Source: a virus
Taxonomy: Duplodnaviria; Caudoviricetes
DNA length: 40,152 nucleotides
IMG/VR virus record: IMGVR_UViG_3300030376_006008
Coordinates: 1-40,152 of that record
Reading direction: 5' to 3' (one strand)
Both the position numbers and the translations under genes were made by a program. Shown here in pieces: positions 4,381-32,103 of the stretch (positions are counted from its first letter, which is position 1; each line of letters starts with the position of its first letter). The notes beneath the pieces were generated by a model. It saw only the letters and a list, made by a program, of their open reading frames with translations. It had not been told where the DNA came from and did not search any database.

Positions 4381-4605
4381 ATGGCTTTTAAAGATATTAT
4401 GGGCAAAATTGGTGGCGCTGTTAAAGGTGCTGCAGGTGCTGGCATGTTAGGACCAGTGGGAATGCTAGCAGGAAAACTTTTAGGTAAGAAAGGAATGCGA
4501 GTAAAAAAAGGAAAGAAAAAAATGATGGGCGGTGGAAAGATGAAATATAAGTATAAAAAAGGAGGTTCTGTAAAAAGAGATATGTTTACTCAGCAATACG
4601 ACTAA
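4381..4605 (+). CDS. Small Gly/Lys-rich protein ending QYD
   Basis: 74 aa, ends YKKGGSVKRDMFTQQYD. Confidence 0.75.
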   Translation: MAFKDIMGKIGGAVKGAAGAGMLGPVGMLAGKLLGKKGMRVKKGKKKMMGGGKMKYKYKKGGSVKRDMFTQQYD

Positions 4606-4967
4606 TGTATACTTACAAAGCAGAGGTAGCAAGAGTTATTGACGGAGACACAATAGATGCTAATATAGATTTAGGGTTTGATGTAACCATAAAAAAAAGA
4701 ATTAGATTAGCAGGTATTGATACTCCAGAATCTAGGACTAGAGACTTAGAAGAAAAAAAGCGTGGACTAGCATCTAAAGATAGATTAGTAGAGCTTTTAA
4801 ATAAGGGTAATTTAGTTGTAGAAAGTCAAAGCGTAGGTAAGTTTGGAAGAGTTTTAGGCGTGTTACATATATATCCAGATGATTTAGATTTACCTATTAA
4901 TGTTAATGACACTTTGGTAAAAGAAGGTTTTGCTGTTGAATACTGGGGTGGAAAAAAGAAAAAATGA
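4605..4967 (+). CDS. Thermonuclease (SNase-like) family protein
   Basis: VARVIDGDT, IRLAGIDTPE and GKFGRVLG motifs. Confidence 0.9.
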   Translation: MYTYKAEVARVIDGDTIDANIDLGFDVTIKKRIRLAGIDTPESRTRDLEEKKRGLASKDRLVELLNKGNLVVESQSVGKFGRVLGVLHIYPDDLDLPINVNDTLVKEGFAVEYWGGKKKK

Positions 4968-5179
4968 TGAACATATTTAAAGACGATAATAATTGGAACG
5001 AAAAATCTATAATTGGATTTGTTGCTTTTGCTATTATGGTCTTAATTATGATAGCTGATTTAGTAACAGGGTGGGTGGGCAAAGACCTAGTTATTAATAA
5101 GTTTGTATATGACTCCTTTGTGTGGGTAGTTCTTGGATGTTTTGGAATTAGTGGAGTTGAAAAATTCGCAAAAAAATGA
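4964..5179 (+). CDS. Small 2-TM membrane protein (holin-like)
   Basis: Two hydrophobic segments and a basic C-terminus EKFAKK. Confidence 0.55.
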   Translation: MMNIFKDDNNWNEKSIIGFVAFAIMVLIMIADLVTGWVGKDLVINKFVYDSFVWVVLGCFGISGVEKFAKK

Positions 5180-5457
5180 AAGAAATATCAGAAGATTCTA
5201 AATTTGAAGTAAGCCTAAAATCATTAGGAGGCTTAGCAGTTTTAATTTTTGCCTTTGTAGGTATGTGGTTTACACTACAAGCCGATATAGCTGAGGCAAA
5301 AGAACTTCCAATCCCACCAGAACCAGAAGTTACTAAAATGGAATTTGATATGAAAGATAAAATGATACGTGCAACTATTATGACAACACAAGAAGATGTA
5401 AAAGAAATTAAAGAAGATATTAAGTATCTTAGAGATAAAATAGATGACATGCAATGA
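5176..5457 (+). CDS. Single-TM protein with C-terminal coiled coil
   Basis: Hydrophobic LGGLAVLIFAFVGMWF; heptads VKEIKEDIKYLRDKI. Confidence 0.6.
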   Translation: MKEISEDSKFEVSLKSLGGLAVLIFAFVGMWFTLQADIAEAKELPIPPEPEVTKMEFDMKDKMIRATIMTTQEDVKEIKEDIKYLRDKIDDMQ

Positions 5458-5843
5458 ATATAGCTAATTATATATTAATTTTATTAGGTGTTTTATTTTT
5501 TGTAGTAGGTAGCGCTTTTGGACAGGATTTTGTAAGTTCTGATAATTTTAGTAAAACAATAGCAAAAGATGTTGTTGTTGTAGAATTTTGGGTTGAATGG
5601 AATTCTGCTAATCAGTTTGCAGAGTTAAATAAACTTAAAGAATGTGAAAAGTATAGAGTTGATATAGGCAAATGTAGTAAAATACAAAACAAATATAGTG
5701 TGGCTTCAATACCAACTGTTTTAGTTTTTGAAAACGGAGAGGAAAGAGAAAGGTTTGGACCCAATATAATGTTTCAATTAGATGTTGACAAAAAAACAAT
5801 ACAACACTCTGTAGATACAATAATATTAAATAAATTTCAATAA
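5454..5843 (+). CDS. Exported thioredoxin-fold protein lacking CxxC
   Basis: Signal peptide; VVVEFWVEWNSAN at the WCxxC position; YSVASIPTVLVFENGEE cis-Pro motif. Confidence 0.75.
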   Translation: MNIANYILILLGVLFFVVGSAFGQDFVSSDNFSKTIAKDVVVVEFWVEWNSANQFAELNKLKECEKYRVDIGKCSKIQNKYSVASIPTVLVFENGEERERFGPNIMFQLDVDKKTIQHSVDTIILNKFQ

Positions 5844-6334
5844 TGGCATTACAAGAGTTATTAGCATATTCAGCACAAAAAGTAACAATAAAAGCTTTAA
5901 GAGGTAATCATTTTCAATTAGTGATTAATGTTAAAACAAGTAGTGGTGCTAATTATGATTTTACAAACTCTTCCACCGAAATAGATAATGGTTATTTTCA
6001 AGTTATAACTCCCTCTGGTAATCAAATGCAAAATATATATGCTGCTTATCAAGGCGGTACTTTAGAAAATATTGCGCCTGAAGCTATAACATTTAATACT
6101 GTTGTAGAAGATGGAAAAATAACAATTACATCAACAAACAATAATGGTTTCTGGCCTGCCCCTGGTATATATAGATACAATATTTTTACACAAAAAGTTG
6201 ACTCTACAGAAGCTAATGACCAATTAACCCACTGGTTGTTTGGCGATTTTATTGTTATTGACGACAACCCTTCAAGTAACTTAGGAGGTGTTCCTGCTGC
6301 TGAGCAAGGATTTTTTCCTATAATAGAAGGATAA
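5843..6334 (+). CDS. Small Ig-like/BppU-like tail or baseplate protein
   Basis: RGNHF...GKITI...GIYRYNI...WLFGDFIV pattern. Confidence 0.5.
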   Translation: MALQELLAYSAQKVTIKALRGNHFQLVINVKTSSGANYDFTNSSTEIDNGYFQVITPSGNQMQNIYAAYQGGTLENIAPEAITFNTVVEDGKITITSTNNNGFWPAPGIYRYNIFTQKVDSTEANDQLTHWLFGDFIVIDDNPSSNLGGVPAAEQGFFPIIEG

Positions 6335-6345
6335 AGTAAAAAAAT

Positions 6346-9300
6346 ATGCCTGAAAATATATCTACATATTGGGCAAAAAACGTTAAAATAAAAACATTAA
6401 GGGGCAATAGATTTGAATTTGTTTTAAATGTTAGAAATGAAGATGGCTCTGACTATTCTTTTCCAGAAGGCCATGTAGCGTTTTTTGCAGCTTTTAAAAA
6501 CGTATCTAACCCCGTAGGTACAATAATGCCCACGTCTTCTGGCGCAGCTATACCTTTTAAAACTTTAGTTGAAGAAGGTAAAATTACAGTAAACACTTTA
6601 GGTGGAGAAGAGTCGTTTTATCCAATAGTTGGAACATATAGCTATATTTTGTTTACATATAATCCTAATGATGTTGGCATTAACTTAGAAGATTTAATGG
6701 AAAACGTCATTCCAAATTGGCATTTAAGAGTTGGTTGGATGAGTGATGAATTAACTGATTTATGGACTAATCCTTATGAAACAGATTCTAATATTTTACA
6801 AAATGGTTATTACGACGAATGGTTTCATGTTGTAGGAGACGAAGGACTTTATCCGTGTTTTATACCAGAATGGAAACTTTTACAAGCAAATCAAGAGTCT
6901 GGTTCTAATTTATATTATAGCCAGCCTTTAATAGATTTTCCCTATATAAATAATGACTACCTAGATAATACCGATGTTTGGAGCAACAACAAGTTAACAT
7001 ATCAAAATGGAATGGAAGAGCTTGTTTTAAAAACTATTATACACAAAAAAAATATAGTTAAATGTATATTTGATGAAAGACAATATTTGTATAAATGGTC
7101 AGTGGTTCCTATACCTGTTAGATACAATTCTCAATGTTCCGTTACAAATATACCACCACCTGCTACAGAAATTTTTCCAAATGCTAGCTCTTGGACTAAT
7201 ATTGATGGTGATTCTTATACTTTTCACACAGGCAATTATCCATTTAATTTTTCTCAATATGTAAATGTGGACCCTGAAAACTCTGAAATTACTTCAGCGT
7301 TCAGTTCAGGACAATTATTTAACTTAAGTCAATATTTTGATGTAAACACAGGATTAACAACTTTAGATTTTGCAACAATAGATATGCCAGACACTGTTAT
7401 TAATCTTTTGCCATTTGTTGAAACTGTTGACAACATGTTAAGTACAAACGTATCAAATCCAGGCTTTGGACTTAACCCCGAAGATTTTTCTATTTCTGGA
7501 TTTGCAGGCATGAGTGCTACTACGTCATCATTTATGTATGCTTCGTATAATTATTTTTATGAACAATCCTTAGAATTGTCTGCTAACTATGTTCCAGGAG
7601 ACCTTTTGTATTACCCTATAAATGCAGAGTTTGACACTGATATAATGTTTTCTTTTCAAATGTATTTATCAGGACTTAACCCATATCAAACATTTTTAGA
7701 GTGGGGTATTTTTCCTTATGGTAATGGTCCTAGCGCTAATAATTTGGTGGCTACAAATTTAATAGCTGCTGGTTATTTTGGTTATCCTACTTTTGAAGAA
7801 TATATAGAGTTTAATAGTGTTGGAGGTTCTCCCCCAGGAAATTACATGCAAGGTTTAAATGACTGGAGAAGAATTAAGCCTGAAAAAGTAGGTTTACCGT
7901 ACGCTCCAATAGAGTCTTTAGATGACTTAGACACTTTACTTTCTCCACCACCAATGGGGGTGTCAGACTATTTTACTGTAATGTTTGGAGGCGCTGCTTT
8001 AGAATATCCAGACGCTTTTCCTTGGTGGTCGTATTATCAAACTGGAGGCACTAGCAATCTTAATGTTCCGTATGTTTCTAATTATAGCGCTATTTTTGCA
8101 GAAGGTGCTGAAATAACAGATGCATGGCTACCTTTTTATAGCCCACAATCTTTAGTTGATTGGAATGAAGACTATTTAATATTTCCTAAAACATCTTATT
8201 TTGTAGACATGTTTAACACATATCCTGAACTAGGTCATATTCCTACAGACGCTATAGGAATAGAGGAACCAACTAATGTTATGCTTGAACAGTTAGGAAA
8301 TGAGTTTCCAATAAGCCCAGAACATCAAAACCTTCCTGTAAACACAAATACACCTGGTTGGAATTTAATTCCATATTTAGGTCTTGAAAGTTCTTTATGG
8401 AATTATTTAAACTATACTAATGAAGCTGATTTACCTGGATTTGTATTGTCGGGAGGTGGCGATGTCACATATTGGGGCGTGCCTATAGAAGATGCATATG
8501 AGCAAGCACCAACATATAATGAATATATATTTGAATACAACGGAGTAGTGTATGATTTTTCTAATTGGAGTTTAGAGCCGTCTGTAGACGAAAATGGTTT
8601 TCCAATTTTAAACACATTACAAGAGCAACAGGCTTGGTATGGAAATAATCAAATAAATGACCAGGGGGAACCAACTGGACTTATAGATGATAATCTTTCA
8701 GTTTATACACCTTTTGCAAGCCCTGACACATTTGGGTGGTCTTATAATCCTGCCAATGAGGGTTTGCCCCCTATACCTAATTCTATTGTAGATTTTGTTT
8801 CTAATACACCTGGATTAGACGGAACAATTTATGACTTATGGTGGAACATGTCTAGCGGTTTAATAAATTCTATTACCGAAGTTAGTTCTGTTTTTTCTAA
8901 TCAAATATATTTACAAGAACAATCGCCAGTAACTGCTTTTGATATAGGCATAAATAGTGGACTTGATTTTCAAACTTCTAGTTACAGTTATAATAGTGTA
9001 ACTGAAGATTTTTTTAACCAAAGTTATGCGCCACAATTTGATGTGTATATATCTGGCTATATATTAAATGCAATGTCAGCAAGAGTTAGATTTTATCAAG
9101 AAGGAACGGATATAGGGGCTGGTAGTATACATGCATTTTGCAGAATTACTCGTCCCGACGGAACAGGTTTTCCAGTAAAACCAGAATTTAATACTATATA
9201 TGGCGAATATGAAATTAATGAATTTAATCAAGTGCAATCACAAAATGCCAACCCTTCAAATGTTTCTCCTTATGGCCTTGGAAGGTTTACTGAGGTTTAT

Positions 9301-11778
9301 AATTTAAATAATGAAGACGTTGAAACAACAATTATACCTATAGCTAGAGCCTATCAATTTAATTTTAAACCTGCTTTTGATGGGTCTGTGCTTACAGACG
9401 CCACCCCTGTAGCTGGACAACCTGGAGCTTATGAATTTCTTTTTAGGTTTGTCACCCCATTTGGAGGTCCTACTTCAACAGGTTCAAACACATTAAACAA
9501 AACTATGGATACGGGTTGGGATTTTATAGATTGGGATAATGCTGGTGATAGAAAATTTGTGGTTGAATATAGGTTTGCAAATTTGAAAACAATGTCTCCA
9601 CCTTTTGTTCCTGAAATAAAAAATTGGATTTTTTTAAACGCAAGCAAAAGGGTTTCTGTAGTTAACTCTATGCAACAAAGTGCATTAAAATTTACAGGCT
9701 ATGAGCCTTTAATAGGAAGAACTAATTATAATAATATCACTTATGGTCATTGGTCTATGGGTACTTCTGTTCTTGTAAATGGTAATTTTCCAGAAGTTCC
9801 AAACCCTGACGATTCTGGAATTTTTTCTAACGAAGCACTTTTTAGAATAACGCACGTGCCTACAGAAGGTAGTATAATTAAATTTTTTTTAGAAGATATT
9901 GGAGATGAATTAGGTGAAGGCTACACAAATGTTGCAGAAAATGGAAGTTGGGATTATTATGGATATGGAGGGTCACTTGAAAATGAATTAGCTATTGGTA
10001 TTAATCAATCTGGGCAACCTAGCCATATATATGATACATATGACTACTTTAATCCTTATTTTAATATTCAGATTAAAAGTACGTGGGAACATACGAATGG
10101 TCGACTTGGCATAAATATAAATCGTTTAACAGAAGTATTGTGGGAGGGTGCTCCTGGTGTTGTAATGGGTGCTCCAACGGGGGGTAATTATAGCGCTGCA
10201 TTGTGGGGCGTAGAAATTAATCCAGAACATTATCCAATATATCAAATAGACCAGTTACCTAATGAAGGAGAATCTCTTTTTAAAGTTTACAATGCGTTAG
10301 GTAATGGTGCTAATAGTGAATTACCACCAATTTTTTTTGATATGCATTATTTAAATGAAGAAACTGGAGAAACAGGTATTGTAGAAATACGTAATGCAAG
10401 CTTATATATGGGCAATAATATGGCGATTAATGGATTGTCTTCTCTTTATAATGACGATAGCGGCCCTGTAAATGGCACTGGTGATAATTCTGGTTTTAAT
10501 ACAGAAACACCACTTGTTTATCAAAATTGGAATGGAGTAAATGCTTTAGACGACACCCCTTATGTTGAACAAGTAGTTAATGAACAATCTATATTATCTT
10601 ATGCGTGGTCAATTCCAAGGTCAAGAACTTTTACTACTAAACGAATATTTTGGCATGGGGCTACCACACAGAATACGGAAGAAGATGACATAATTACTTC
10701 ATATTATGGAATGACATATGCTGAAATAAATTCTAATTGGCAGGGTCTTGCAGGTTATTTGTCTTTAAGTCCCATCGACAATAGTTTTGAGGATAGAGGA
10801 GGCTCTAACAATAGTAGGGACATAACTGCTATATTGCCGCAAAACCCAGAGTGGCATGGCAATCCAATGAAATTTTGGTTTGAAAGCAGAGAGTTTTACA
10901 AGCCAAGAATTATAGGGGGACCCCCTCCAGAGCTTGGTGGAACAAACCCGTATTGGCTAGCGGAAGAAATATGTTTAAGAGCGGGTGGAGTTTTTAGAGC
11001 TAGACATACAGTTGGAGAAGGGAGTGTAGAAATTAATGCACAAAATTGTTTATACACTGATGTTTTTTGGACTCCAGAAATAATGGCTGAATGGCCAACA
11101 GACCCAGACTCGGGACTTTTTATTCCCGCAGAACACCCTAATGGAAGTGGTCAATTAATATATGGAAAGGTTTATGCTTATTGGGTTCCTCCTGGAAGAG
11201 GTATGTATCCTCCAAGAATAACTATGTTAAGCAAAAGTATTAGAAGGATAAACTATACAGAATTTTTAGGAACTGATGCGCAAAGTCAACCTTCTAGGGT
11301 TGTAGAAAGAAAAGGTGAATTGAGAGTGTCAGGAACAGCCATGACTATGGATTTAATGAAACTTACAATAAATGAACCTCCTGAATATAATGTGTTTGAA
11401 TACACAGTAAAAATAACTAAGGCTGATGACCCAGAATTTATATATGATACTTTTGATATAGACGCATCTGTACCTTTTCCAACTGATTTTGAAAATTATG
11501 ATTGGTCACAATCCACTACTGTAACAAATCAAACTACAATATTTTTAGGAGAAATGGGCATACCTGATGGTCAAGAATTGCAATTTTATATAAAACCAAA
11601 AGAAAGCTACAGGCAGTTTGATACATCTCAAGAATCTTATATAAGATTAGCTGGGACATACTTTTCAACTACATGGGGAAATAATTCGTATCTTAGTGAA
11701 GACGTGTTAACTCCTGTAAAAGCAAATTATTGGTTATATGGAGATTTTGTAGTAAATAAAAATAACGAAAACGAGTAA
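6346..11778 (+). CDS. Large 1810-aa acidic putative tail/virion protein; both termini paralogous to 5843..6334
   Basis: N-terminal RGNRF...GKITV...GTYSYIL and C-terminal WLYGDFVV; N/P/Y/F/G-rich interior. Confidence 0.6.
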   Translation: MPENISTYWAKNVKIKTLRGNRFEFVLNVRNEDGSDYSFPEGHVAFFAAFKNVSNPVGTIMPTSSGAAIPFKTLVEEGKITVNTLGGEESFYPIVGTYSYILFTYNPNDVGINLEDLMENVIPNWHLRVGWMSDELTDLWTNPYETDSNILQNGYYDEWFHVVGDEGLYPCFIPEWKLLQANQESGSNLYYSQPLIDFPYINNDYLDNTDVWSNNKLTYQNGMEELVLKTIIHKKNIVKCIFDERQYLYKWSVVPIPVRYNSQCSVTNIPPPATEIFPNASSWTNIDGDSYTFHTGNYPFNFSQYVNVDPENSEITSAFSSGQLFNLSQYFDVNTGLTTLDFATIDMPDTVINLLPFVETVDNMLSTNVSNPGFGLNPEDFSISGFAGMSATTSSFMYASYNYFYEQSLELSANYVPGDLLYYPINAEFDTDIMFSFQMYLSGLNPYQTFLEWGIFPYGNGPSANNLVATNLIAAGYFGYPTFEEYIEFNSVGGSPPGNYMQGLNDWRRIKPEKVGLPYAPIESLDDLDTLLSPPPMGVSDYFTVMFGGAALEYPDAFPWWSYYQTGGTSNLNVPYVSNYSAIFAEGAEITDAWLPFYSPQSLVDWNEDYLIFPKTSYFVDMFNTYPELGHIPTDAIGIEEPTNVMLEQLGNEFPISPEHQNLPVNTNTPGWNLIPYLGLESSLWNYLNYTNEADLPGFVLSGGGDVTYWGVPIEDAYEQAPTYNEYIFEYNGVVYDFSNWSLEPSVDENGFPILNTLQEQQAWYGNNQINDQGEPTGLIDDNLSVYTPFASPDTFGWSYNPANEGLPPIPNSIVDFVSNTPGLDGTIYDLWWNMSSGLINSITEVSSVFSNQIYLQEQSPVTAFDIGINSGLDFQTSSYSYNSVTEDFFNQSYAPQFDVYISGYILNAMSARVRFYQEGTDIGAGSIHAFCRITRPDGTGFPVKPEFNTIYGEYEINEFNQVQSQNANPSNVSPYGLGRFTEVYNLNNEDVETTIIPIARAYQFNFKPAFDGSVLTDATPVAGQPGAYEFLFRFVTPFGGPTSTGSNTLNKTMDTGWDFIDWDNAGDRKFVVEYRFANLKTMSPPFVPEIKNWIFLNASKRVSVVNSMQQSALKFTGYEPLIGRTNYNNITYGHWSMGTSVLVNGNFPEVPNPDDSGIFSNEALFRITHVPTEGSIIKFFLEDIGDELGEGYTNVAENGSWDYYGYGGSLENELAIGINQSGQPSHIYDTYDYFNPYFNIQIKSTWEHTNGRLGININRLTEVLWEGAPGVVMGAPTGGNYSAALWGVEINPEHYPIYQIDQLPNEGESLFKVYNALGNGANSELPPIFFDMHYLNEETGETGIVEIRNASLYMGNNMAINGLSSLYNDDSGPVNGTGDNSGFNTETPLVYQNWNGVNALDDTPYVEQVVNEQSILSYAWSIPRSRTFTTKRIFWHGATTQNTEEDDIITSYYGMTYAEINSNWQGLAGYLSLSPIDNSFEDRGGSNNSRDITAILPQNPEWHGNPMKFWFESREFYKPRIIGGPPPELGGTNPYWLAEEICLRAGGVFRARHTVGEGSVEINAQNCLYTDVFWTPEIMAEWPTDPDSGLFIPAEHPNGSGQLIYGKVYAYWVPPGRGMYPPRITMLSKSIRRINYTEFLGTDAQSQPSRVVERKGELRVSGTAMTMDLMKLTINEPPEYNVFEYTVKITKADDPEFIYDTFDIDASVPFPTDFENYDWSQSTTVTNQTTIFLGEMGIPDGQELQFYIKPKESYRQFDTSQESYIRLAGTYFSTTWGNNSYLSEDVLTPVKANYWLYGDFVVNKNNENE

Positions 11779-12555: not shown

Positions 12556-12935
12556 AAGGTATAGTAAAAAACCTGATAGGTAATGCAGGTGAAATATTAG
12601 ATGAGGTAATAACCACAGATGAAGAAAGGCTAGATGCTAAAAGAAAGCTTAAAGAGCTGATACTCAGTCATCAAGCTCAGATGGAACAAAATATAACTGA
12701 CAGATGGAAAGCTGATATGAACAGCGATTCTTGGTTGTCAAAAAACGTTAGACCATTAATGCTTATATTTGTAATGGTATGTACTATGCTTTTAATATTT
12801 ATAGATGCTGGATTTCTTGAGTTTCAAGTGGAAGAAAAATGGACAGATTTATTAACAATGGTACTAATAACAATCGTGGGTTCTTATTTTGGAGGACGTT
12901 CGTTAGAAAAAGTTAGAAATGGCAAAGCTAAATAG
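12549..12935 (+). CDS. Holin-like protein (GTA 3TM holin type)
   Basis: TTDEERL, RWKADMNSDSWLSKNVRP and YFGGRS motifs with TM helices. Confidence 0.75.
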   Translation: MLKGIVKNLIGNAGEILDEVITTDEERLDAKRKLKELILSHQAQMEQNITDRWKADMNSDSWLSKNVRPLMLIFVMVCTMLLIFIDAGFLEFQVEEKWTDLLTMVLITIVGSYFGGRSLEKVRNGKAK

Positions 12936-13044
12936 TTTTATATATAGAAGTAATGGGGGTAAAAAACGAAAAGGCGTGCATAGCAAAAATGCTAGCAAGT
13001 CACAAAATAGTTATAAAAAACCCTATAGGGGACAAGGAAGATAA
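12919..13044 (+). CDS. 41-aa basic peptide ending YRGQGR (not in ORF track)
   Basis: MAKLNSFIYRSNGGKKRKGVHSKNASKSQNSYKKPYRGQGR; fills the gap exactly. Confidence 0.75.
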   Translation: MAKLNSFIYRSNGGKKRKGVHSKNASKSQNSYKKPYRGQGR

Positions 13045-13047: not shown

Positions 13048-13377
13048 ATGGCAAAAACACCAGCATGGCAAAGAAAAGCGGGTAAAAACCCTAGTGGTGG
13101 CTTAAATAAAAAAGGAGTTGCTTCTTACAGAAGAGCAAACCCTGGCTCTAAACTTAAAACAGCTGTAACCACCAAGCCTTCTAAATTAAAGAAGGGAAGT
13201 AAGGCCGCTAAAAGACGTAAATCTTTTTGTGCTAGAATGAAAGGTATGAAAAAAAGACGTACTAGCGCAAAAACAGCAAGAGACCCAAATTCAAGAATAA
13301 ATAAATCTCTTCGTAAATGGAATTGCAATACAGGTTGTAGAGTTCCTATGAGAAAAACTGGAGAACAATACGATTAG
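13048..13377 (+). CDS. Small basic phage protein (DUF6321-like) ending QYD
   Basis: PAWQRKAGKNPSGGLN, RRKSFCARM, SLRKWNC, then an extension ending GEQYD. Confidence 0.75.
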   Translation: MAKTPAWQRKAGKNPSGGLNKKGVASYRRANPGSKLKTAVTTKPSKLKKGSKAAKRRKSFCARMKGMKKRRTSAKTARDPNSRINKSLRKWNCNTGCRVPMRKTGEQYD

Positions 13378-13379: not shown

Positions 13380-13565
13380 ATGGCAAAGAAAGATGCATGT
13401 TATCATAAAGTAAAACGTAGATATAAGGTTTGGCCTTCTGCATATGCAAGTGGTGCATTAGCTAAATGTAGAAAAAAAGGTGCTAAAAACTGGGGTACTG
13501 GTGGTAAAAAGAAAATGGCACATGGTGGCAAAATTTGTTGTTTAATGAAGTATCAAAAGGATTAA
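13380..13565 (+). CDS. Small basic phage protein ending QKD
   Basis: DACYHKVK...WPSAYASGAL, then MAHGG...YQKD. Confidence 0.75.
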   Translation: MAKKDACYHKVKRRYKVWPSAYASGALAKCRKKGAKNWGTGGKKKMAHGGKICCLMKYQKD

Positions 13566-13834
13566 TGGCTGTACGTAAAACAAAAAAAGGTTTAGCTCTT
13601 AAACGATGGTTTAAAGAAGATTGGAGAACTCCATCAGGCAAAAAAGATTATAGTGGTGGTGAAAGTACATTTCGTCCCACAAAACGTGTATCAAAGAAAA
13701 CGCCCTCTACATGGTCAGAGCTTACACCTTCAGAAAAGGCTGCGGCAAAAAAAGAAAAAACAAGAAAAGGTAGAGTTGGTCGATATAAAAAGAAAAGAAA
13801 AAAAGAGCAAGGAGGTTTAATACAATACGATTAA
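13565..13834 (+). CDS. Small basic phage protein ending QYD
   Basis: ATG overlaps the prior TAA; LKRWFKEDW...RPTKRVSKKTP; ends QGGLIQYD. Confidence 0.75.
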   Translation: MAVRKTKKGLALKRWFKEDWRTPSGKKDYSGGESTFRPTKRVSKKTPSTWSELTPSEKAAAKKEKTRKGRVGRYKKKRKKEQGGLIQYD

Positions 13835-13835: not shown

Positions 13836-14114
13836 ATGGCAAGAAATTCATTAGCTGGTAAAAGAACGGGTAAATCTAAAACTGCAAAATATTATGCTAA
13901 AAATCCCAAGGCAAGAGCAAAAAAGAAAAAGTATGATACAGATTACCACAAATCTTCATCTAGAAAAAAATACCGCGCAAAGCTAAACAAGTTTAATAAA
14001 AATAATCCAAGCAGCAGAAAAGGTGATGGTAAAGACGCGTCTCATACACAAACAGGTTCTTTAGTTTTAGAGCTACAAAGACGTAATAGAGCTAGAAATA
14101 GGGGTAAAAAGTAG
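13836..14114 (+). CDS. Small basic protein with degenerate HNH-like tail
   Basis: GDGKDASHT...LVLE...NRARN. Confidence 0.6.
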   Translation: MARNSLAGKRTGKSKTAKYYAKNPKARAKKKKYDTDYHKSSSRKKYRAKLNKFNKNNPSSRKGDGKDASHTQTGSLVLELQRRNRARNRGKK

Positions 14115-16965: not shown

Positions 16966-17322
16966 TTATCTGTTTTCAGTATAATCGCCTGAAGCAATTA
17001 AATTATCTGTTTTAGTTTCGTTGAAATATAACCACGCATTATATATCTTACCGCTCATAGTTTCTATAGGAACCTTTTTCCTTTTATACCACGATGGGTG
17101 TCCTTCCAACATATCTAAGGTAAGCAAAATTCTTGGACTGACCAAATATAATTCCCCATATATCTGTGAAACTGACTCAGTCTCAGACACATAGGGAATT
17201 CCATTTGCATACATAGCATAGTTATTTACAGTCCTTCCTATATCAATAGTCTTACAATCCATAATTAATCTATGGTTGTGAAACCCTCTTCTTAATGTAC
17301 CATATACAAAAACTATTTCCAT
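16966..17322 (-). CDS. Gamma-glutamylcyclotransferase (AIG2/GGCT-like)
   Basis: VFVYGTLRRG, GELY and LDMLEGHPSWYKR. Confidence 0.9.
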   Translation of the reverse strand: MEIVFVYGTLRRGFHNHRLIMDCKTIDIGRTVNNYAMYANGIPYVSETESVSQIYGELYLVSPRILLTLDMLEGHPSWYKRKKVPIETMSGKIYNAWLYFNETKTDNLIASGDYTENR

Positions 17323-23051: not shown

Positions 23052-24296
23052 TTAACTGAAACGCTCTTCACGTTTATCATAATAGTCTGCTATAATATCT
23101 CCTTCTTTACCCAGGCCTGCAACCAATACTTCACGCATTGATATACATATAGTTGGGTCTTCTTGGAATCTATTGTAGGTTTCTATTATGGTTCTAGAAT
23201 GATTTTCGACAAATTTAACAAAACTCATGCAAAACAGCACCCACTTTCTAATTTTATTATAGTCAAGTGAGCCACTATGTTGCCTAAATTCTATAGTCTC
23301 ACCTCTTTCATTGTAGCTACAGTTGTTAAGGTTAAGCCACTTGTAACGAGTAGACGCATAGTGTCCATTAGGGTGACGCGACTTCTTACAATTGTTTTTA
23401 TCAAACCCTGCATCAGTATTAGAAACATATTTTGAAAGCAATCTTAACATTCGTTTATATGTAAAAGGATAAAGTTTTTTATTAACTGTCCTAATTTTTA
23501 TAAATTCTCTAGGTATAGATTGACAATAACTATTTAATCTTCTTGATTTGGGTTGAATCCTAAACAATTGTTCTTGCATCATTTGCCCCAACATAATAGA
23601 CAGTATACTAAATCTTCTATTGAAGTTAGCCCCACCTATATGAACATGAACACCACAAGTTTTATCAACATCACATTTTGCTGAAAGAGCTTGACATATG
23701 TCTTCTAGTTCTTTCATACCCTTATCGCCCTGAAGAACACCTGTCACATATTCTTTAGCTTCAATACTACCATCATCTACACACTTAAGACTGTATTTAG
23801 ATGTATAGTCTAAATAACCACCACAAGTTTCCATCTCAACACCAAATGTATATGGCATACCATATGTTTTAGTAAGCCTAGTGTCTACAATTTTAAAGGT
23901 GTTTTCCCAGGTTTCTCCTTCATCATATTCATCTTCTGGAACCCAATCATCTCGACTTTCAGAATATAAAAAACCTCTGTGTTCTGCTGTATCACGACAC
24001 TGAAAATATCTATCAGAATATTCTGAGTATTCATAATCAGTATCTTGATGAAACCAACCTTCGCCACCTTGATACAAATCACCATAAATCATTTCTGAGT
24101 CAAGATAATAGCATTCATTTGTATCACACCATTGTAGACAATCATTATCACAATGATAATATAGTCCATCTGATTCACAATGTTGAGCTTCATCTACATG
24201 ACACCAATCTCCATTGTGCAGTTGAACGCAATCATTTTCATGTTGTTCATCGCCATGCATATCAAGAACATAACCTTCTTCTAATTCTTTTTCCAT
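23052..24296 (-). CDS. Putative amidoligase (COOH-NH2 ligase, Amidoligase_2-like) with acidic Cys/aromatic N-terminal repeats
   Basis: FGVEME, DDGSI, EYVT, CGVHVHIG, RYKWLN and TIEFRQH. Confidence 0.85.
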   Translation of the reverse strand: MEKELEEGYVLDMHGDEQHENDCVQLHNGDWCHVDEAQHCESDGLYYHCDNDCLQWCDTNECYYLDSEMIYGDLYQGGEGWFHQDTDYEYSEYSDRYFQCRDTAEHRGFLYSESRDDWVPEDEYDEGETWENTFKIVDTRLTKTYGMPYTFGVEMETCGGYLDYTSKYSLKCVDDGSIEAKEYVTGVLQGDKGMKELEDICQALSAKCDVDKTCGVHVHIGGANFNRRFSILSIMLGQMMQEQLFRIQPKSRRLNSYCQSIPREFIKIRTVNKKLYPFTYKRMLRLLSKYVSNTDAGFDKNNCKKSRHPNGHYASTRYKWLNLNNCSYNERGETIEFRQHSGSLDYNKIRKWVLFCMSFVKFVENHSRTIIETYNRFQEDPTICISMREVLVAGLGKEGDIIADYYDKREERFS

Positions 24297-24307
24297 AATT
24301 TAAAGTT

Positions 24308-25237
24308 TTAATATTGATAATAAATTTGGTCAGCTATTTGTTCTAAAACTTCAATAGCATTTCTTATAGTAGTTTTAGAATTCATGTCTAAATCAGAATG
24401 TTCTATAATTTCCATAAGGTCATTTGCTGCATCAGAATAAACTTGAGCTCTCATATAATCTTCTTCTTCATCGGTGTCCCAAGGGTCTTGTCCTTGCCAT
24501 ATGTTTGCTTGATTATAAATGCTTGACTGTGAGGGTGTTATATTATTATATCCACCATACGAACGCCAGTCTGTATTTATAGTCTTAGCTGCTGGTATAG
24601 GCTTGTGCTTAACTTTAATAGTTTTAATTAACTCGCCGTTTTCCCAAACATATACTCTATCTTTTTCACATTCTTTTACATCTTTTTTTCTTTTAGTTAG
24701 GTTTTCTAAACCTTCTTCTAAAGAACTAAAGTATGTACCCTCTTCTCTTGTTAAATAATAAAGTGGGTTGTTGTGTCTGTAAGTATATAATCTGTTGTCA
24801 CTAGCTGTATATAAAACTGCTTTTGTACCACCAAATAAACCTAAGTTTGACGCATCTCTTGTTTCGCCAAGCACTTTAATAATCATTTCAGAATCAACAG
24901 TAGTTTTCTTTATGTTAAACTTTTTGCCTACTTCTTCATAATTATTTAACACACCATTGTGAGCACCTATAATTCCTTTGTGCTGAAATGGGTGTGCGTT
25001 CTCAACAGTGTTATCACCGTGAGTACCATATCTTGTGTGTCCTATAAGAACACTGCCTGTTTCGTTTGATTCAAGCATTGGTAATATATTCATAGATTCA
25101 TCTAATGTTTTGTATATTTTACCATTTACGAACATTCCTGTAGAGTGGCCACCTCTGGAATCGTTGTCCGCTAATAAATGTAAAGCTTTTAACACGCTTG
25201 TGTCTGCCTTACCTGAAAAGCCTACTAATCCACACAT
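24308..25237 (-). CDS. Class II glutamine amidotransferase (Ntn hydrolase)
   Basis: MCGLVG, RGGHSTG, GHTRYGTHG, NAHPF, HNG and VDSE; in-frame upstream ATG at 25330. Confidence 0.9.
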   Translation of the reverse strand: MCGLVGFSGKADTSVLKALHLLADNDSRGGHSTGMFVNGKIYKTLDESMNILPMLESNETGSVLIGHTRYGTHGDNTVENAHPFQHKGIIGAHNGVLNNYEEVGKKFNIKKTTVDSEMIIKVLGETRDASNLGLFGGTKAVLYTASDNRLYTYRHNNPLYYLTREEGTYFSSLEEGLENLTKRKKDVKECEKDRVYVWENGELIKTIKVKHKPIPAAKTINTDWRSYGGYNNITPSQSSIYNQANIWQGQDPWDTDEEEDYMRAQVYSDAANDLMEIIEHSDLDMNSKTTIRNAIEVLEQIADQIYYQY

Positions 25238-25322
25238 ATTTTTATTTTTTTCAGTGTTAATAATTTCATGGTATTCATCTATTGCGTCGAAGGGTATACC
25301 ATTTACCCCTTCATCCCAAACC

Positions 25323-25799
25323 CTACTCATGACTTGGTAAGTTTTCGGTTGTTATTATAAGTTGCTCTTTTTGTTTTTTAGATATATTACTTCTTATAGG
25401 ACCAAAATCTAAAATTTCTTTAACAAGCCATAACATATCATTTATTCTATCAAGCTGAGTAGTTTTTGCATATTCAACATATGTTTCTATTCTTTCGTAT
25501 TTAGTTTTGGTTTTAGAATCATAAGTAACTCCAGTACCTAAATAAACAGGTCTAAGACTTGCTTTCATAAAACTTGTTAAAACTTCATATATAGATTCTC
25601 TACTAACAAGACAATCAACTTTTAAATTCTTTTTATTTGATTTATCTACTATAAATGCCTTGCTGTTTTCTAAATCTTCAAGCTTGTAAGCTTCTTCTTT
25701 GATTTGTTTTTTGTTATACATAGGTATAACTTTATTATTATTTAGATACTCGCCTAAGGCTTCTCTAATAATATTATAGTTTAATTCATGTTTTGCCAT
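25323..25799 (-). CDS. Hypothetical protein
   Basis: ORF with AT-rich start region. Confidence 0.65.
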   Translation of the reverse strand: MAKHELNYNIIREALGEYLNNNKVIPMYNKKQIKEEAYKLEDLENSKAFIVDKSNKKNLKVDCLVSRESIYEVLTSFMKASLRPVYLGTGVTYDSKTKTKYERIETYVEYAKTTQLDRINDMLWLVKEILDFGPIRSNISKKQKEQLIITTENLPSHE

Positions 25800-28023: not shown

Positions 28024-28031
28024 TAGATTTG
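28024..28031 (+). promoter_or_regulatory. Sigma-A -7 element TAGATTTG leading the rightward block
   Basis: TAnnTTTG match 5 nt before the ATG at 28037; TTG at 27998. Confidence 0.65.
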
Positions 28032-28036
28032 CATAC

Positions 28037-28174: not shown

Positions 28175-28175
28175 T

Positions 28176-28553: not shown

Positions 28554-28554
28554 T

Positions 28555-28887: not shown

Positions 28888-28919
28888 TTTTGCAAAAAAA
28901 CGCTTCGCGTTTATTTTAG

Positions 28920-28927
28920 TATATTTG
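28920..28927 (+). promoter_or_regulatory. Sigma-A -7 element TATATTTG
   Basis: Intergenic, 4 nt before the ATG at 28932. Confidence 0.65.
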
Positions 28928-28931
28928 CACC

Positions 28932-29234
28932 ATGGAGAGATACGTTTTGTTTGTTAATACAGCCACTGATTATTTAATGTTTCCTTTGAAAGCTTTCATT
29001 GGTGCTAAATATCTTTCTGCAACTACTATAGACTTGTATTTTGAAAAATCGCCTTTGTCTTTTAAAATAACTTTAACTATTGAAACTGGGACGGGTGTAG
29101 ATGTAGCTTTAAAAATAGCTGAGTTGTTTAGCAGAAATAGCACTGCTACTATTATATTTAATGACACTATAAGTGCTTGGCCTGTTGAAGAGGTTACAGG
29201 AATATCATCATTTACTAAAGTTGTAATAAAATAA
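28932..29234 (+). CDS. Paralog family A, copy 3
   Basis: FPLKAFIG...IDLYF...LTIETG. Confidence 0.7.
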   Translation: MERYVLFVNTATDYLMFPLKAFIGAKYLSATTIDLYFEKSPLSFKITLTIETGTGVDVALKIAELFSRNSTATIIFNDTISAWPVEEVTGISSFTKVVIK

Positions 29235-29878
29235 TGAAATATAATATTACATTTTCATATGGAGCTAATATACATTTAGGAACCTGCGTTGTAACTGCTC
29301 AGGACGACACGTCTATGACCAATTATTATAATAGCACAGAAAGTGGATATACGGATTTTACAACTTTAGATTTAAATGTTGGAGAAAAATTATATGTAAC
29401 ATATGATAAAAGAAATATATTCTTTGCAAGAATATCTGCTATAGCTGCAAATAGCATAACCTTGTCATCAAATCCTGGACAAGTTATACACAATCGTGTG
29501 TTAACAAACGGTCACATATCTCCATATGTAAGAAGAACTCCATACCTATACAGCTATCCTTGCAATAATTATTGTGGAGCTTCTTTATCTAAAAAAGGAG
29601 AAAATTTTAGTGTATACACAGAAAGTAACCCTATATATTCTGACGCAACACATACTGAAACTAACTCTGTTATTTCATTGTATTTTTTAAAAGGAAATAA
29701 TGTAGAAGAAATTAAAGTAGAGGTTAAGGTGGGGTCTGAGTCCACTGCAATTAAAGACTTTCAAAAAATGCTAAGACTAGAAAAAGATGTTAGTTTTATG
29801 TCAGAAATAAAAAAATTAAATAAAGATGTTATTAGTGTTAACTCTATAACAGCTTCTAATAAAAGCAAACTATATTAG
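29234..29878 (+). CDS. Paralog family A, copy 4, with inserted domain
   Basis: C-terminal half YPCNNYCG...ISLYF...VEVKVG. Confidence 0.6.
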   Translation: MKYNITFSYGANIHLGTCVVTAQDDTSMTNYYNSTESGYTDFTTLDLNVGEKLYVTYDKRNIFFARISAIAANSITLSSNPGQVIHNRVLTNGHISPYVRRTPYLYSYPCNNYCGASLSKKGENFSVYTESNPIYSDATHTETNSVISLYFLKGNNVEEIKVEVKVGSESTAIKDFQKMLRLEKDVSFMSEIKKLNKDVISVNSITASNKSKLY

Positions 29879-29896
29879 TATGTTGTTATTTTTTTA

Positions 29897-29904
29897 TATC
29901 TTTG
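29897..29904 (+). promoter_or_regulatory. Sigma-A -7 element TATCTTTG
   Basis: Intergenic, 4 nt before the ATG at 29909. Confidence 0.65.
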
Positions 29905-29908
29905 GGGA

Positions 29909-30214
29909 ATGGTAAATGAAAAAACAGCTTATGGTGTGCTCCATAAAAATATAGCAGGAGAAATGCACCATGTTAGCTTTGCAAACGAATATCCTAGAAT
30001 AGCTGAAAAAGAAGATGATATAGTTATGTATCTTATAGATAATGACTATGAAATATTGGATAAAAAACTATACTATGTAGGTGGGGAAACGCATACAGGA
30101 GTTGAAACATACTTAAATTTAGATACATGTGATTATCATTTAGAAGAATATTCTTGGGTGGAACATGGAGTATGGAAATTAAAATATAAAATTAAAAAAA
30201 AGAAAAATGCCTAA
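29909..30214 (+). CDS. Hypothetical protein
   Basis: 101-aa ORF behind the promoter motif. Confidence 0.65.
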   Translation: MVNEKTAYGVLHKNIAGEMHHVSFANEYPRIAEKEDDIVMYLIDNDYEILDKKLYYVGGETHTGVETYLNLDTCDYHLEEYSWVEHGVWKLKYKIKKKKNA

Positions 30215-30671
30215 TTTAACAGTAACCACAAAAGAACATATCGTTTTACAAGGTAGACAACAGGGTTCTACAAGAACAATGACCTTTGCTAATATTGTTG
30301 ATGTATTTAATAGAATATATTCTTTTAAGCAACAAACATTAACATCTTTATATACCACTCATGCAGACACAGTTTCTGGTGCAGTATTTGATGATGGAAG
30401 TATAAGATATGTAAGAATAACAAATTTAGGAGCAAGTCCTTTAGCTATAAATGTAATAGGAGAAAATAACTTTTCTTATGCATATGAAATACAAAAGGGA
30501 CAATCTATGTATTTGTATAATCATTCTTTAGTAATAGAGGCTGATGATTCTGATGCTATAACTGGAACAGAATTATCAACACTAGAGGATATTGATGAAG
30601 TAAAAGCATACTGTCACAAAGGGGCAGGTAGAGTAGAAGTTTTCATTGCTAGTACTGAAGCAGCAAAATAA
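30207..30671 (+). CDS. Putative structural protein, paralog family B copy 1
   Basis: LTVTTKE...TF...IRYVRITNL shared with the next gene. Confidence 0.6.
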   Translation: MPNLTVTTKEHIVLQGRQQGSTRTMTFANIVDVFNRIYSFKQQTLTSLYTTHADTVSGAVFDDGSIRYVRITNLGASPLAINVIGENNFSYAYEIQKGQSMYLYNHSLVIEADDSDAITGTELSTLEDIDEVKAYCHKGAGRVEVFIASTEAAK

Positions 30672-30678
30672 TTAAAAT

Positions 30679-31146
30679 ATGGCATCAACATTAAAAGTAA
30701 CATTAACAGAAAATTTAACTGTAGATGGCAATAGCTATAGTTCTGAAAGAACTAAAACATTTACAACAATTACTAATGTGTATAAAACCACTGTAGCTGT
30801 AGGCACAGGGGGAATGTCAGAAGTTGTTGCTCTAGCAGCGTCTGCTGGTAATATAGGTACTCTTGACCAAGATACTATAGAATATTTTAGAATAACTAAT
30901 CTTGATGGTACAAATTTTGTAGAATTAGGATTTGAAGATACAAGTGGAAATAATGCTTATTATGTTAAGTTAGACGCAGGAAGAAGTTTTATTGTTCCAG
31001 TATCAAATACAACAACAGAGCACCCAGGGTTTTTTGCACACGACAGCGGTCATGTAACAGGCTCTCATGTTGATATAACTAGTATTACTGCAAATGCAGA
31101 TACTTCTGCTTGCAATATAGAGATAATGGTTGCCATGAACGGATAA
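30679..31146 (+). CDS. Putative structural protein, paralog family B copy 2
   Basis: LKVTLTE...TF...IEYFRITNL. Confidence 0.6.
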   Translation: MASTLKVTLTENLTVDGNSYSSERTKTFTTITNVYKTTVAVGTGGMSEVVALAASAGNIGTLDQDTIEYFRITNLDGTNFVELGFEDTSGNNAYYVKLDAGRSFIVPVSNTTTEHPGFFAHDSGHVTGSHVDITSITANADTSACNIEIMVAMNG

Positions 31147-31147
31147 T

Positions 31148-31675
31148 ATGTATTTATTACAACTAGACAAAAAAGGAGCAATAATAAAAGAAGATGATGG
31201 TCTTTATGCAATAGATGAGTTTAAAGACTTAGTAGATGATATGGGCATGAAAGCTATGCTATGGGTGGCTTTAGTATGTGATTATGATAGCCCTTATAGA
31301 CATTTTGTAGAAAGAGAAAGAGTCAAGTCTGTAAGCAAAAAGATATTTGACAAGTATGAATGGAAGGGTGTAAAAAATGAAAAAATTGCTAACGCAATTA
31401 AAAAGTATAAAGAACTTCAATTTGACCCACTAGATGCTCAGTTAGTGGCATTTAATGAAAAGATTGATGAATATACTCGTTTAATGAGAGATACAAGAAT
31501 AAACGAGGACAATGCCGAAAGTATGCAAAAGATAATGATTGGTATTGAAAAAGTTCTTAATACAAGACAAAAACTTTTAGACGCAATAGAAAGAAGGGGT
31601 AGTAGACAAAAAATTAAAGGCGAAGCAAAAATGAGTTACTTAGAGGAGCAAATGAGTATTAAAGATAAAATATAA
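31148..31675 (+). CDS. Helical protein upstream of TerL, candidate terminase small subunit
   Basis: Position; DYDSPY...AIKKYKELQ; C-terminal coiled coil. Confidence 0.45.
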   Translation: MYLLQLDKKGAIIKEDDGLYAIDEFKDLVDDMGMKAMLWVALVCDYDSPYRHFVERERVKSVSKKIFDKYEWKGVKNEKIANAIKKYKELQFDPLDAQLVAFNEKIDEYTRLMRDTRINEDNAESMQKIMIGIEKVLNTRQKLLDAIERRGSRQKIKGEAKMSYLEEQMSIKDKI

Positions 31676-31679
31676 AATT

Positions 31680-31922
31680 ATGCCAGATAAAAAAAGATAT
31701 AAGGGATATAATCCTATAAAAATAGGAAAACAATTTTATAAAGATGTTAAAAAGAGTGCAAAAGCTAAGTTTGTAGACGAACCTGCATATAGAAAAAAAA
31801 TGAAAGCAGAAAGAAAGCAAGAAATAAAAGAAGGAAAAATTTACACACCACCTAATAAAAGAAAAAAGGATTATAAAAAAGGCGGTAAAATTAGAAATAT
31901 GTTTACAGAGCAATACGATTAA
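31680..31922 (+). CDS. Small basic protein ending QYD
   Basis: Ends YKKGGKIRNMFTEQYD. Confidence 0.75.
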   Translation: MPDKKRYKGYNPIKIGKQFYKDVKKSAKAKFVDEPAYRKKMKAERKQEIKEGKIYTPPNKRKKDYKKGGKIRNMFTEQYD

Positions 31923-31923
31923 T

Positions 31924-32103
31924 ATGAGCAAAAAAATTAAAATAGGGGATAAAAGTTATGTAAAAGATGGCAACAATTTTGTTGAAGAGTCAAATTACAA
32001 AAACTATATGAGAAAAAAAGACACTGCTACAAAAATTGGTGGAGCTTTGAGTAAGGCTCAAAATGTTGCACCAAAATTTCAAGAGCATGTCCAAAAAGAT
32101 TAA
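31924..32103 (+). CDS. 59-aa basic protein ending QKD (not in ORF track)
   Basis: MSKKIKIGDKSY...KIGGALSK...HVQKD; overlaps the TerL start by 17 nt. Confidence 0.65.
   Translation: MSKKIKIGDKSYVKDGNNFVEESNYKNYMRKKDTATKIGGALSKAQNVAPKFQEHVQKD

What the first reader, a model, noticed from the sequence alone, without database searches (positions are those of the whole stretch)
4381..32103. Six unrelated small basic proteins share a C-terminal (xxGG)...Q[YK]D-stop tag
Seen: the C-termini are YKKGGSVKRDMFTQQYD (4381), NTGCRVPMRKTGEQYD (13048), MAHGGKICCLMKYQKD (13380), KEQGGLIQYD (13565), YKKGGKIRNMFTEQYD (31680) and KIGG...HVQKD (31924). They lie at three loci up to 27 kb apart, and the protein bodies do not resemble each other. 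None of the other ORFs I called ends in QxD. The 4381 and 31680 tails differ at synonymous sites (GGA/GGC, ACT/ACA, GAC/GAT), which favours protein-level selection. However, all four QYD copies use CAATACGAY, so a nucleic-acid role is not excluded. Inference: this is a portable address tag, most simply a capsid-loading or protease-recognition signal for DNA-condensing core proteins. A more speculative option is a Pup-like conjugation tag, since the phage encodes a COOH-NH2 ligase of the same broad fold class as PafA.
Basis: partly seen in the sequence, partly recalled or inferred. Interest (0 to 1): 0.82.

Follow-up and report, generated by a model that had tools for sequence, protein, structure and literature searches.

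The report
Swappable cargo tag in marine crassviruses
Six unrelated small basic proteins of this crAss-like phage, and dozens more in its relatives, end in the same short peptide, which stays in place while the rest of the gene is swapped and likely labels them for loading into the virus head.

Summary
All six ORFs end in Q-x-D-stop: 6 of 67 genes, 0.14 expected. The window is a 40-kb piece of a 60-70 kb crAss-like phage.
- Family-wide: in 14 relatives chosen by capsid protein alone, 48 of 1057 genes end Qx[DN], all on the structural strand; 42 are small and basic.
- Portable: 153 tagged proteins fall into 56 body clusters. At one locus the body is replaced while the tail stays.
- Protein-level: synonymous sites vary freely, apart from one unexplained codon bias.
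- Link to virion cargo: the [YFM]xxGG half recurs in the gene at the cargo-protein-1 position, and between the modules of PhiCrAss001 virion protein gp45. The same bodies occur in T4-like cyanophages; two of the nine homologues read start with leaders resembling T4's capsid-targeting sequence.
Best reading: a head-loading address (0.6). The receptor and any cleavage are unshown. A Pup-like role is unlikely. The scan found this tag before on other DNA (e1-5926504, e1-6126108). Six literature searches found no description.

The parts
4381..4605 (+). 74-aa basic protein; tag YKKGG-SVKRDMFT-QQYD at 4552-4605 (long form)
   Evidence: identical protein in G006, related one in G001
13048..13377 (+). 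109-aa DUF6321 protein; tag CNTGC...EQYD at 13324-13377
   Evidence: Pfam PF19846 E 4e-19; body matches 503 phage records, mostly cyanophages
13380..13565 (+). 61-aa basic protein (KKDACY module, phrog_727); tag MAHGG-KICCLMKY-QKD at 13515-13565
   Evidence: body matches 365 phage records
13565..13834 (+). 89-aa DUF5872 protein; short-form tag KEQGG-LI-QYD at 13802-13834
   Evidence: Pfam PF19197 E 3e-12
31680..31922 (+). 80-aa basic protein in a body-swap slot; tag YKKGG-KIRNMFTE-QYD at 31872-31922
   Evidence: G006 has an unrelated body between near-identical flanks and the same tail from KKGG onward
31924..32103 (+). 59-aa protein; KIGG, 16-residue spacer, QKD at 32029-32103; last codons overlap the likely terminase start (32087)
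   Evidence: 10 orthologues end QKD, QRD or QND
12919..13044 (+). 41-aa basic protein next to the cluster, untagged (internal counter-example)
13836..14114 (+). 92-aa basic protein (phrog_6437), untagged here and in the relatives examined
32063..33907 (+). terminase large subunit (context; likely start 32087)
   Evidence: phrog_6681; crAss001 gp19 E 5e-25
33910..36180 (+). P22-like portal (context; candidate docking platform, inferred)
   Evidence: crAss001 gp20 E 1e-71
37326..38753 (+). crassvirus major capsid protein (context; candidate receptor, untested)
   Evidence: PF23898 E 1e-33
23052..25330 (-). amidoligase_2 (23052-24296) and class II glutamine amidotransferase (24308-25330); with GGACT at 16966-17322 (-), the known phage cassette; judged not part of the tag system

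Best explanation
The six genes carry one two-part C-terminal peptide ([YFM]-[KSA]-x-G-G, a 2-18 residue spacer, then Q-[HYK]-D at the free end) that is kept while the basic body in front of it is exchanged, and it likely works as an address that brings these proteins into the phage head, where they would bind the packaged DNA. Shown: the tag is conserved in frame across the clade, sits on 56 body clusters, is confined to the structural strand, and survives body swaps. Shown: its GG half otherwise occurs almost only in one large protein whose gene follows the ring and muzzle genes, the position of crassvirus cargo protein 1 (gp45). Inferred (about 0.65): the tagged proteins are internal virion cargo, free-standing versions of the basic modules that gp45 carries between GG motifs. 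Inferred (about 0.3): the GG half docks on the small S-H...E-x-x-G-x-E domain of that protein, whose likely counterpart in PhiCrAss001 sits in 12 copies on the portal, while Q-x-D-COOH is a clade-specific second anchor. Inferred: genes are renewed by recombination between the start codon and the tag, giving a fast-changing cargo library.
For: Unbiased set of 14 relatives chosen by MCP: 42 of 267 small basic genes end Qx[DN] against 6 of 790 others (OR 24, p 2e-20; the genomes are related, so p is optimistic). 45 of those 48 have GG or GC in the last 26 residues against 110 of 1009 background; 48 of 48 are on the MCP strand. All 9 near-complete relatives have at least one tag. 153 distinct tagged proteins form 56 body clusters (set partly selected by pattern). 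Swap: window 31680 and G006 share near-identical flanks, with breakpoints just after the start and just before KKGG; five bodies from five different clusters occupy this slot. Overlap control. Motif [YFM][AKSE]xGGx[VILMF] per 1000 aa: tagged 6.4, cargo-1-position proteins 2.3, other proteins of 100 aa or more 0.04. In PhiCrAss001 the strict motif occurs only in gp45 among 101 called genes; gp45 has such GG sites at 20, 209, 263, 332, 373, 427, 562 and 828. Virion peptides 275-300 and 307-320 (PMC10172136) lie in a small basic module between two of them. In phi14:2 the strict motif occurs only in gp080 among 129 called genes, a virion protein by MS/MS annotation at the same position. Same bodies elsewhere: a T4-like 454-aa protein holds DUF6321 at 86% identity and starts MKTFEQFTE; P-TIM40 DUF6321 starts MKNFAQYIEE; T4 IPII and IPIII start MKTYQEFIAE. 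Modules in cyanophage homologues usually follow a Glu, the residue after which T4 gp21 cuts (LIE logo, PMC9026906).
Against: No tagged protein has been seen in a virion: no cultured relative has MCP identity above about 27%, and no MS annotation was found for the cyanophage homologues fetched. The tag is not obligatory. DUF6321 is untagged in G005, G014, HTVC103P and HTVC024P, and DUF5872 is untagged in G005. 49 of 88 strongly basic small late-strand ORFs are untagged, some of them spurious calls. G004 has a single tag. A CTS-like start is clear in only 2 of the 9 cyanophage homologues read. Homology of the clade's domain to gp45 425-552 is weak: no PF25725 hit, hhalign probability 6-14%, HMM E 0.045 though top of the test set, atlas scores 0.88-0.89, below the 0.9 mark. 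Cargo-1 proteins carry GG motifs but not QxD, so QxD has no experimental anchor. A looser GG pattern also hits three non-virion phi14:2 genes. The middle codon is C-ending in about 65% of tags against 23-35% background, which a pure peptide signal does not explain. The cargo-1 gene lies outside this 40-kb fragment and was studied in relatives.
Confidence: 0.6

Rival explanations
1. Maturation site first. The GG motif is cut, possibly by the cargo-1 domain itself, releasing the short xxQxD peptide and splitting cargo protein 1 into modules. This is compatible with head loading but makes cleavage the core function.
For: The domain keeps invariant G, H, E, G, E in 41 sequences and is often flanked by GG motifs. 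The two resolved gp45 segments (214-245 and 425-552) begin at or just after a GG site and end before the next; none of the four MS peptides quoted in the text spans a motif. The T4-like homologues use Glu junctions.
Against: The modelled gp45 segment starts A425-F426-G427-G428, so that motif is continuous in the published model. PMC10172136 treats gp45 as one chain and its main text has no mention of cleavage or protease. No known protease family matched the domain. One family replaces GG with GC.
Confidence: 0.15
2. Cytoplasmic docking or turnover signal. The proteins act late in the infected cell (DNA compaction, lysis timing) and QxD-COOH is read by a host or phage protease or adaptor.
For: An invariant free C-terminus is typical of degrons and PDZ-type ligands (recalled). 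Three of the six lie just downstream of the holin. The tag is dispensable on some bodies.
Against: It does not explain why the GG half is shared with virion cargo protein 1, or why the same bodies sit behind CTS-like leaders in some T4-like phages. No early-strand gene is tagged (0 of 48). The short-form pattern is not enriched in cellular genomes (2 of 55 matches end small basic ORFs).
Confidence: 0.12
3. Nucleic-acid element. The tail is a recombination arm or translational-coupling signal and the peptide is a by-product.
For: Swap breakpoints coincide with the tag. The middle codon is C-ending in 35 of 52 tags drawn one per cluster, against 33% expected (p 4e-7). The 4381 and 31680 tails form a 58-nt repeat at 72% identity.
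Against: In 73 short-form tails, codon positions 1 and 2 are fixed and position 3 is free. Q, D, G and stop codons are at background usage. The Q-to-stop 12-mer occurs 42 times at tagged ends and 3 times elsewhere in 1.08 Mb, overlaps included. There is no shared RNA fold (z -1.7 to +0.55). The spacer varies in whole codons. A secondary role as crossover arm remains likely.
Confidence: 0.07
4. Pup-like or transglutaminase-like conjugation tag served by the phage amidoligase, glutamine amidotransferase and GGACT.
For: The amidoligase is present in 9 of 9 near-complete relatives. Q at -3 is invariant (partly by construction of the set) and D/N alternate at the end, 147 to 6.
Against: Pup ends in GGE or GGQ and is joined through the terminal glutamate (PMC3511204). 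Here the end is D or N, and the E-ending pattern gave 7 hits, none ending a small basic ORF, against 57 of 68 for D. The enzymes are on the opposite strand. phi14:2 and PaP3 carry the cassette and have 0 of 129 and 0 of 78 QxD ends. The cassette is hypothesised to modify peptidoglycan (PMC5498523). Co-occurrence is uninformative because the ligase is universal in the clade.
Confidence: 0.06

Closest known systems
T4 capsid targeting sequence (CTS) of internal proteins IPI-III and Alt (PMC9026906, PMC5694885; passages read)
   Same: A short shared peptide on dissimilar, poorly conserved small basic proteins. Some of the same bodies (DUF6321) occur in T4-like cyanophages behind a CTS-like start.
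   Different: The CTS is N-terminal, 10 residues, and removed by gp21 after Glu. This tag is C-terminal, bipartite, has another sequence, lies in a crAss-like phage, and neither loading nor cleavage is shown.
Crassvirus cargo protein 1 (PhiCrAss001 gp45; PDB 7QOG chain M; Pfam PF25725; PMC10172136)
   Same: Carries repeated [FKS]-[AK]-x-GG type motifs between modules, including a basic module detected in virions; its portal-bound domain shares S-H and G-E with the clade's domain; same gene position after ring and muzzle.
   Different: One large protein, not separate genes; no QxD end. The paper's main text does not describe the GG motifs. Homology of the domains is likely but below standard thresholds.
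Encapsulin cargo-loading peptides (recalled; also named in the scan's notes)
   Same: Short, usually C-terminal peptides that load unrelated cargo into an HK97-fold shell.
   Different: Cellular compartments with enzyme cargo. Binding of this tag to the capsid protein was not tested, and no sequence comparison was made.
Pup / PafA pupylation (PMC3511204; passages read)
   Same: Small low-complexity proteins with a GG near the end; a carboxylate-amine ligase in the same genome.
   Different: Terminal residue D or N rather than E or Q; GG not adjacent to the end; basic variable bodies; ligase is Amidoligase_2, unlinked and present in phages without tags.

Membership tests
T4 CTS | N-terminal propeptide of about 10 residues | tested here: not met
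   The shared element is C-terminal; N-termini vary (MP 53, MA 51 of 153)
T4 CTS | Shared by dissimilar, poorly conserved small basic proteins | tested here: met
   153 proteins, 56 body clusters, median net charge +0.21
T4 CTS | Removed by a prohead protease after Glu | tested here: inconclusive
   No Glu site in the tag; no prohead protease among 56 window ORFs scanned; relatives' full proteomes were not scanned
T4 CTS | Sufficient to package a foreign protein | not testable with these tools
   needs a reporter fusion
Pup | C-terminal GGE or GGQ | tested here: not met
   In 14 MCP-selected relatives, small basic late genes with Q at -3 end D 39, N 3, other 4, none E or Q; spacer GG to Q is 2-18
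Pup | PafA-family ligase encoded beside the tag gene | tested here: not met
   23052 matches only PF12224 Amidoligase_2, opposite strand and 7 kb or more from any tag
Pup | Isopeptide conjugation to target lysines | not testable with these tools
   needs biochemistry or MS
Encapsulin cargo-loading peptide | Short terminal peptide on unrelated cargo | tested here: met
Encapsulin cargo-loading peptide | Binds the inner face of an HK97-fold shell protein | not tested
Crassvirus cargo protein 1 (for the relatives' GG-rich gene) | Gene follows ring gp43 and muzzle gp44 | tested here: met
   gp43 and gp44 homologues precede it in G003 and G004; in G006 gp43 by phmmer and a 2313-aa virion protein by PHROG
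Crassvirus cargo protein 1 (for the relatives' GG-rich gene) | PF25725 domain at Pfam cut-off | tested here: not met
   no hit; only sub-threshold leads
Crassvirus cargo protein 1 (for the relatives' GG-rich gene) | Same fold as gp45 425-552 | tested here: inconclusive
   models at pLDDT 68 and 76; best Z under 5
Crassvirales (the phage) | Crassvirus MCP, portal and terminase | tested here: met
   PF23898; gp19 and gp20 homology
Crassvirales (the phage) | Virion RNA polymerase | not tested
   3,566-4,026 aa ORFs in relatives were not annotated; absent from this fragment

The most novel reading that the evidence does not exclude
Crassviruses have an unrecognised cargo code. The portal-bound domain of cargo protein 1 reads, and may cut, [YFM]xxGG motifs, so gp45 is a processed polyprotein rather than one chain spanning 420 angstroms. 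This marine clade has broken the polyprotein into a swappable library of single genes, each loaded by a C-terminal GG...QxD tag and injected with the genome.
Probability: 0.2. Interest if true: 0.82.

Novelty: new variant of a known kind. Interest (0 to 1): 0.62.

Why it matters
How crassviruses choose the several megadaltons of protein they pack and inject is not explained in the structural work read here (PMC10172136). The tag gives a concrete candidate signal. Its GG half can be tested now in cultured PhiCrAss001 and phi14:2, by looking for cleavage at, or docking of, the gp45 motifs. It also assigns a likely role (internal head cargo) to widespread unknown families such as DUF6321 and DUF5872, and predicts which hypothetical genes of a marine phage clade are virion-borne. 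A 10-residue C-terminal loading tag would be a useful delivery tool for Bacteroidota phages. The principle itself is known from T4, which limits the surprise.

Tried and rejected
Complex prediction of the cargo-1 domain (own GG strand removed) with the 31680 tail gave 'no answer', score 0.00; it is not counted either way. Two AlphaFold models of the domain found no match in PDB by Foldseek or VIA-align and none at E 0.001 or better in BFVD. Sequence searches of PDB with the clade's protein and alignment did not return gp45. The idea that the C-ending middle codon avoids a stray ATG near the next start was tested and rejected: 55 of 84 near against 26 of 41 far. RNA folding of the six tails showed nothing shared. 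Amidoligase co-occurrence could not discriminate. The genome-collection scan gave chance-like matches and no host. PhiCrAss001 gp73 ends FKRGGKQEN; it is a neutral early-region protein and was set aside as probable chance. No virion-proteomics record for the cyanophage homologues was found. Literature searches returned no description of the tag or of the gp45 motifs; the library lacks most subscription papers. Extended Data Table 3 of PMC10172136 could not be read and may list small proteins. Not run: expression or read-level analysis, a tree of DUF6321, folding the tag with MCP, portal or scaffold.
Full report
OBSERVATION. The six ORFs exist as described and are the only ORFs of 25 aa or more, in six frames, that end in Q-x-D. 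With a crude caller (ATG starts, longest first) the window has 67 genes and 0.14 expected QxD ends (P 6e-9); allowing any residue pair, six matches arose in 7 of 20,000 randomisations. The bodies are unrelated by blastp. Two have Pfam families, DUF6321 (13048) and DUF5872 (13565); 13380 matches phrog_727. Two basic neighbours, 12919 and 13836, are untagged.

THE PHAGE. The capsid protein is PF23898, the portal is P22-like, and terminase and portal match PhiCrAss001 gp19 and gp20. The record is 40,152 bases; relatives run to 62-71 kb, so this is a fragment. No cultured phage has MCP identity above about 27%. A Bacteroidota host is inferred from the family only.

FAMILY-WIDE TAG. I fetched 17 related records; 14 were chosen by capsid protein alone and 3 by the tag pattern. 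In the 14, 48 of 1057 called genes end Qx[DN]: 42 of 267 small basic genes against 6 of 790 others. 45 of the 48 have GG or GC in their last 26 residues (background 110 of 1009) and all 48 lie on the MCP strand. The genomes are related, so the p value (2e-20) overstates independence. The caller misses some tags (4 seen) and includes spurious small ORFs. All 9 near-complete records have 1-7 tags; two partial ones (G014, G015) had none called. A pattern scan of IMG/VR gave 67 stretches, with 57 of 68 distinct matches ending small basic ORFs; the same pattern ending in E gave 0 of 7, and cellular genomes gave 2 of 55. Pooling all loci yields 153 distinct tagged proteins, median 89 aa, in 56 single-linkage body clusters. 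This pool was defined by the tag, so its residue frequencies are partly circular, and it includes one likely false positive (L105). The commonest form is Y/F-K/S-x-G-G-I/L-I-Q-H/Y-D; spacers run from 2 (81 cases) to 18.

PORTABILITY. Before the terminase, the window and its closest relative G006 have near-identical flanks but unrelated bodies; identity stops just after the start codon and resumes at KKGG. Five different bodies occupy this slot across relatives. For 31924, the QKD codons overlap the terminase start in 6 of 9 terminase starts examined, and there they force C and G at synonymous terminase positions; in 2 of the other 3 the orthologue still ends QKD without overlap.

PROTEIN OR DNA. 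In 73 short-form tails, positions 1 and 2 of each codon are fixed and position 3 is free; Q, D, G and stop codons match background. The Q-to-stop 12-mer occurs 42 times at tagged ends and 3 times elsewhere, and the tails share no RNA fold. Against this, the Y/H codon ends in C in about 65% of tags, also when one tag is drawn per cluster (35 of 52, p 4e-7), against 23-35% background; distance to the next ATG does not explain it. I leave that unexplained; inheritance of tails as crossover arms is one possibility.

LINK TO VIRION CARGO. The strict motif [YFM][AKSE]xGGx[VILMF] occurs 34 times in 5,346 aa of tagged proteins, 12 times in 5,131 aa of one large protein per genome, and 11 times in 277,687 aa of everything else of 100 aa or more. 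That large protein follows the ring and muzzle genes, the place of cargo protein 1. In PhiCrAss001 (bases 8,001-102,600 examined) the strict motif is found only in gp45, which has eight motif-like GG sites. PMC10172136 (passages) reports gp45 in virions, residues 425-552 bound in 12 copies to the portal wing, and peptides 275-300 and 307-320; these fall in a basic module between the GG sites at 263 and 332. In phi14:2 (all but 418 bases examined) the strict motif is only in gp080, annotated as structural by MS/MS; gp081 has similar motifs; a looser pattern also hits three non-virion genes. The clade's large protein ends in a domain that begins with its own GG motif and keeps invariant G, H, E, G, E; 2,350 cluster representatives match it. 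Its homology to gp45 425-552 is likely but weak: hhalign E 0.006 and 0.002 at 6-14% probability, gp45 top hit at E 0.045, PF25725 clusters at ranks 2 and 3 in the atlas at 0.88-0.89, and no Pfam hit. That this domain reads the tag is inference; the motif similarity and the portal location are its only support.

SAME BODIES, OTHER LABEL. The DUF6321 body matches 503 phage records and the 13380 body 365, mostly cyanophages. In a T4-like single-cell virus a 454-aa protein starting MKTFEQFTE holds DUF6321 at 86% identity plus two weaker modules also seen on tagged proteins; P-TIM40's DUF6321 protein starts MKNFAQYIEE; T4 IPII and IPIII start MKTYQEFIAE. The T4 CTS is 10 residues and sufficient for packaging (PMC9026906; PMC5694885). 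In the other seven homologues read, the start is not CTS-like, though modules usually follow a Glu. None has an MS annotation. DUF6321 is also found with no tag in G005, G014 and two pelagiphages. So the bodies travel between phage families and often, not always, carry a family-specific label.

PUP-LIKE OPTION. Pup ends GGE or GGQ (PMC3511204). The tag does not; the amidoligase is Amidoligase_2 on the opposite strand, universal in the clade (9 of 9 near-complete, 17 of 24 records), and present without QxD ends in phi14:2 and PaP3. The cassette is hypothesised to modify peptidoglycan (PMC5498523, one passage).

VERDICT. Real, portable, mainly protein-level tag (about 0.9). It likely marks internal head cargo (about 0.65); receptor and cleavage are open. 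It works like a T4 CTS or an encapsulin loading peptide (the latter recalled) but fails CTS membership on position and sequence. Searches found no description in the held library; Extended Data Table 3 of PMC10172136 was unreadable. Earlier notes of this scan report the same tag on other DNA; I counted them as leads only. Novelty: new variant of a known kind. Interest 0.62.

Noticed in passing
G001 L128:19654-19896; G002 L132:2690-2884; G003 L136:2107-2307 and three more relatives: A second family of small basic late proteins shares an N-terminal M-[GA]-S-L-L-D-[QN] start with variable bodies and no QxD; possibly another tag. The slot lies just outside this window.
   Followed up: no
tagged proteins, all loci: 53 of 153 tagged proteins begin Met-Pro, against 43 of 793 background genes; the upstream swap breakpoint falls just after these codons.
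   Followed up: partly
window 13324-13377 and 13515-13565: The tails of the two adjacent genes both carry extra cysteines (CNTGC; KICC), kept in several relatives; may indicate metal binding or disulphide pairing.
   Followed up: no
window 1-40152: GATC is absent (0 observed, 74 expected) and CATG is depleted (102 vs 146), suggesting host restriction avoidance.
   Followed up: no
L192:6136-7431 and 9718-9846 (Pelagibacter phage HTVC103P gp79, gp75): A protein after the portal region has many xxxGG motifs plus a domain shared with tape-measure proteins, and a 42-aa basic protein has two GG motifs; the GG code extends beyond crassviruses.
   Followed up: partly
L149:23363-23902 (PhiCrAss001 gp73): Ends FKRGGKQEN, tag-like, but the protein is neutral and in the replication region; probably chance.
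   Followed up: partly
G003 L138:8070-9653: The cargo-1-position protein of this relative has an N-terminal LysM domain; in G006 the next gene has a glycosyl hydrolase 108 domain, fitting cell-wall passage during ejection.
   Followed up: no
window 6346-11778 and 5843-6334: A 1810-aa acidic ORF without family match starts like the upstream 163-aa ORF and varies in length among relatives; already noted by the scan (e1-5908186).
   Followed up: no
window 31148-31675: A 175-aa gene is conserved at 51-99% in all relatives that include the region and anchors the tagged arrays before the terminase; possibly the small terminase subunit.
   Followed up: no
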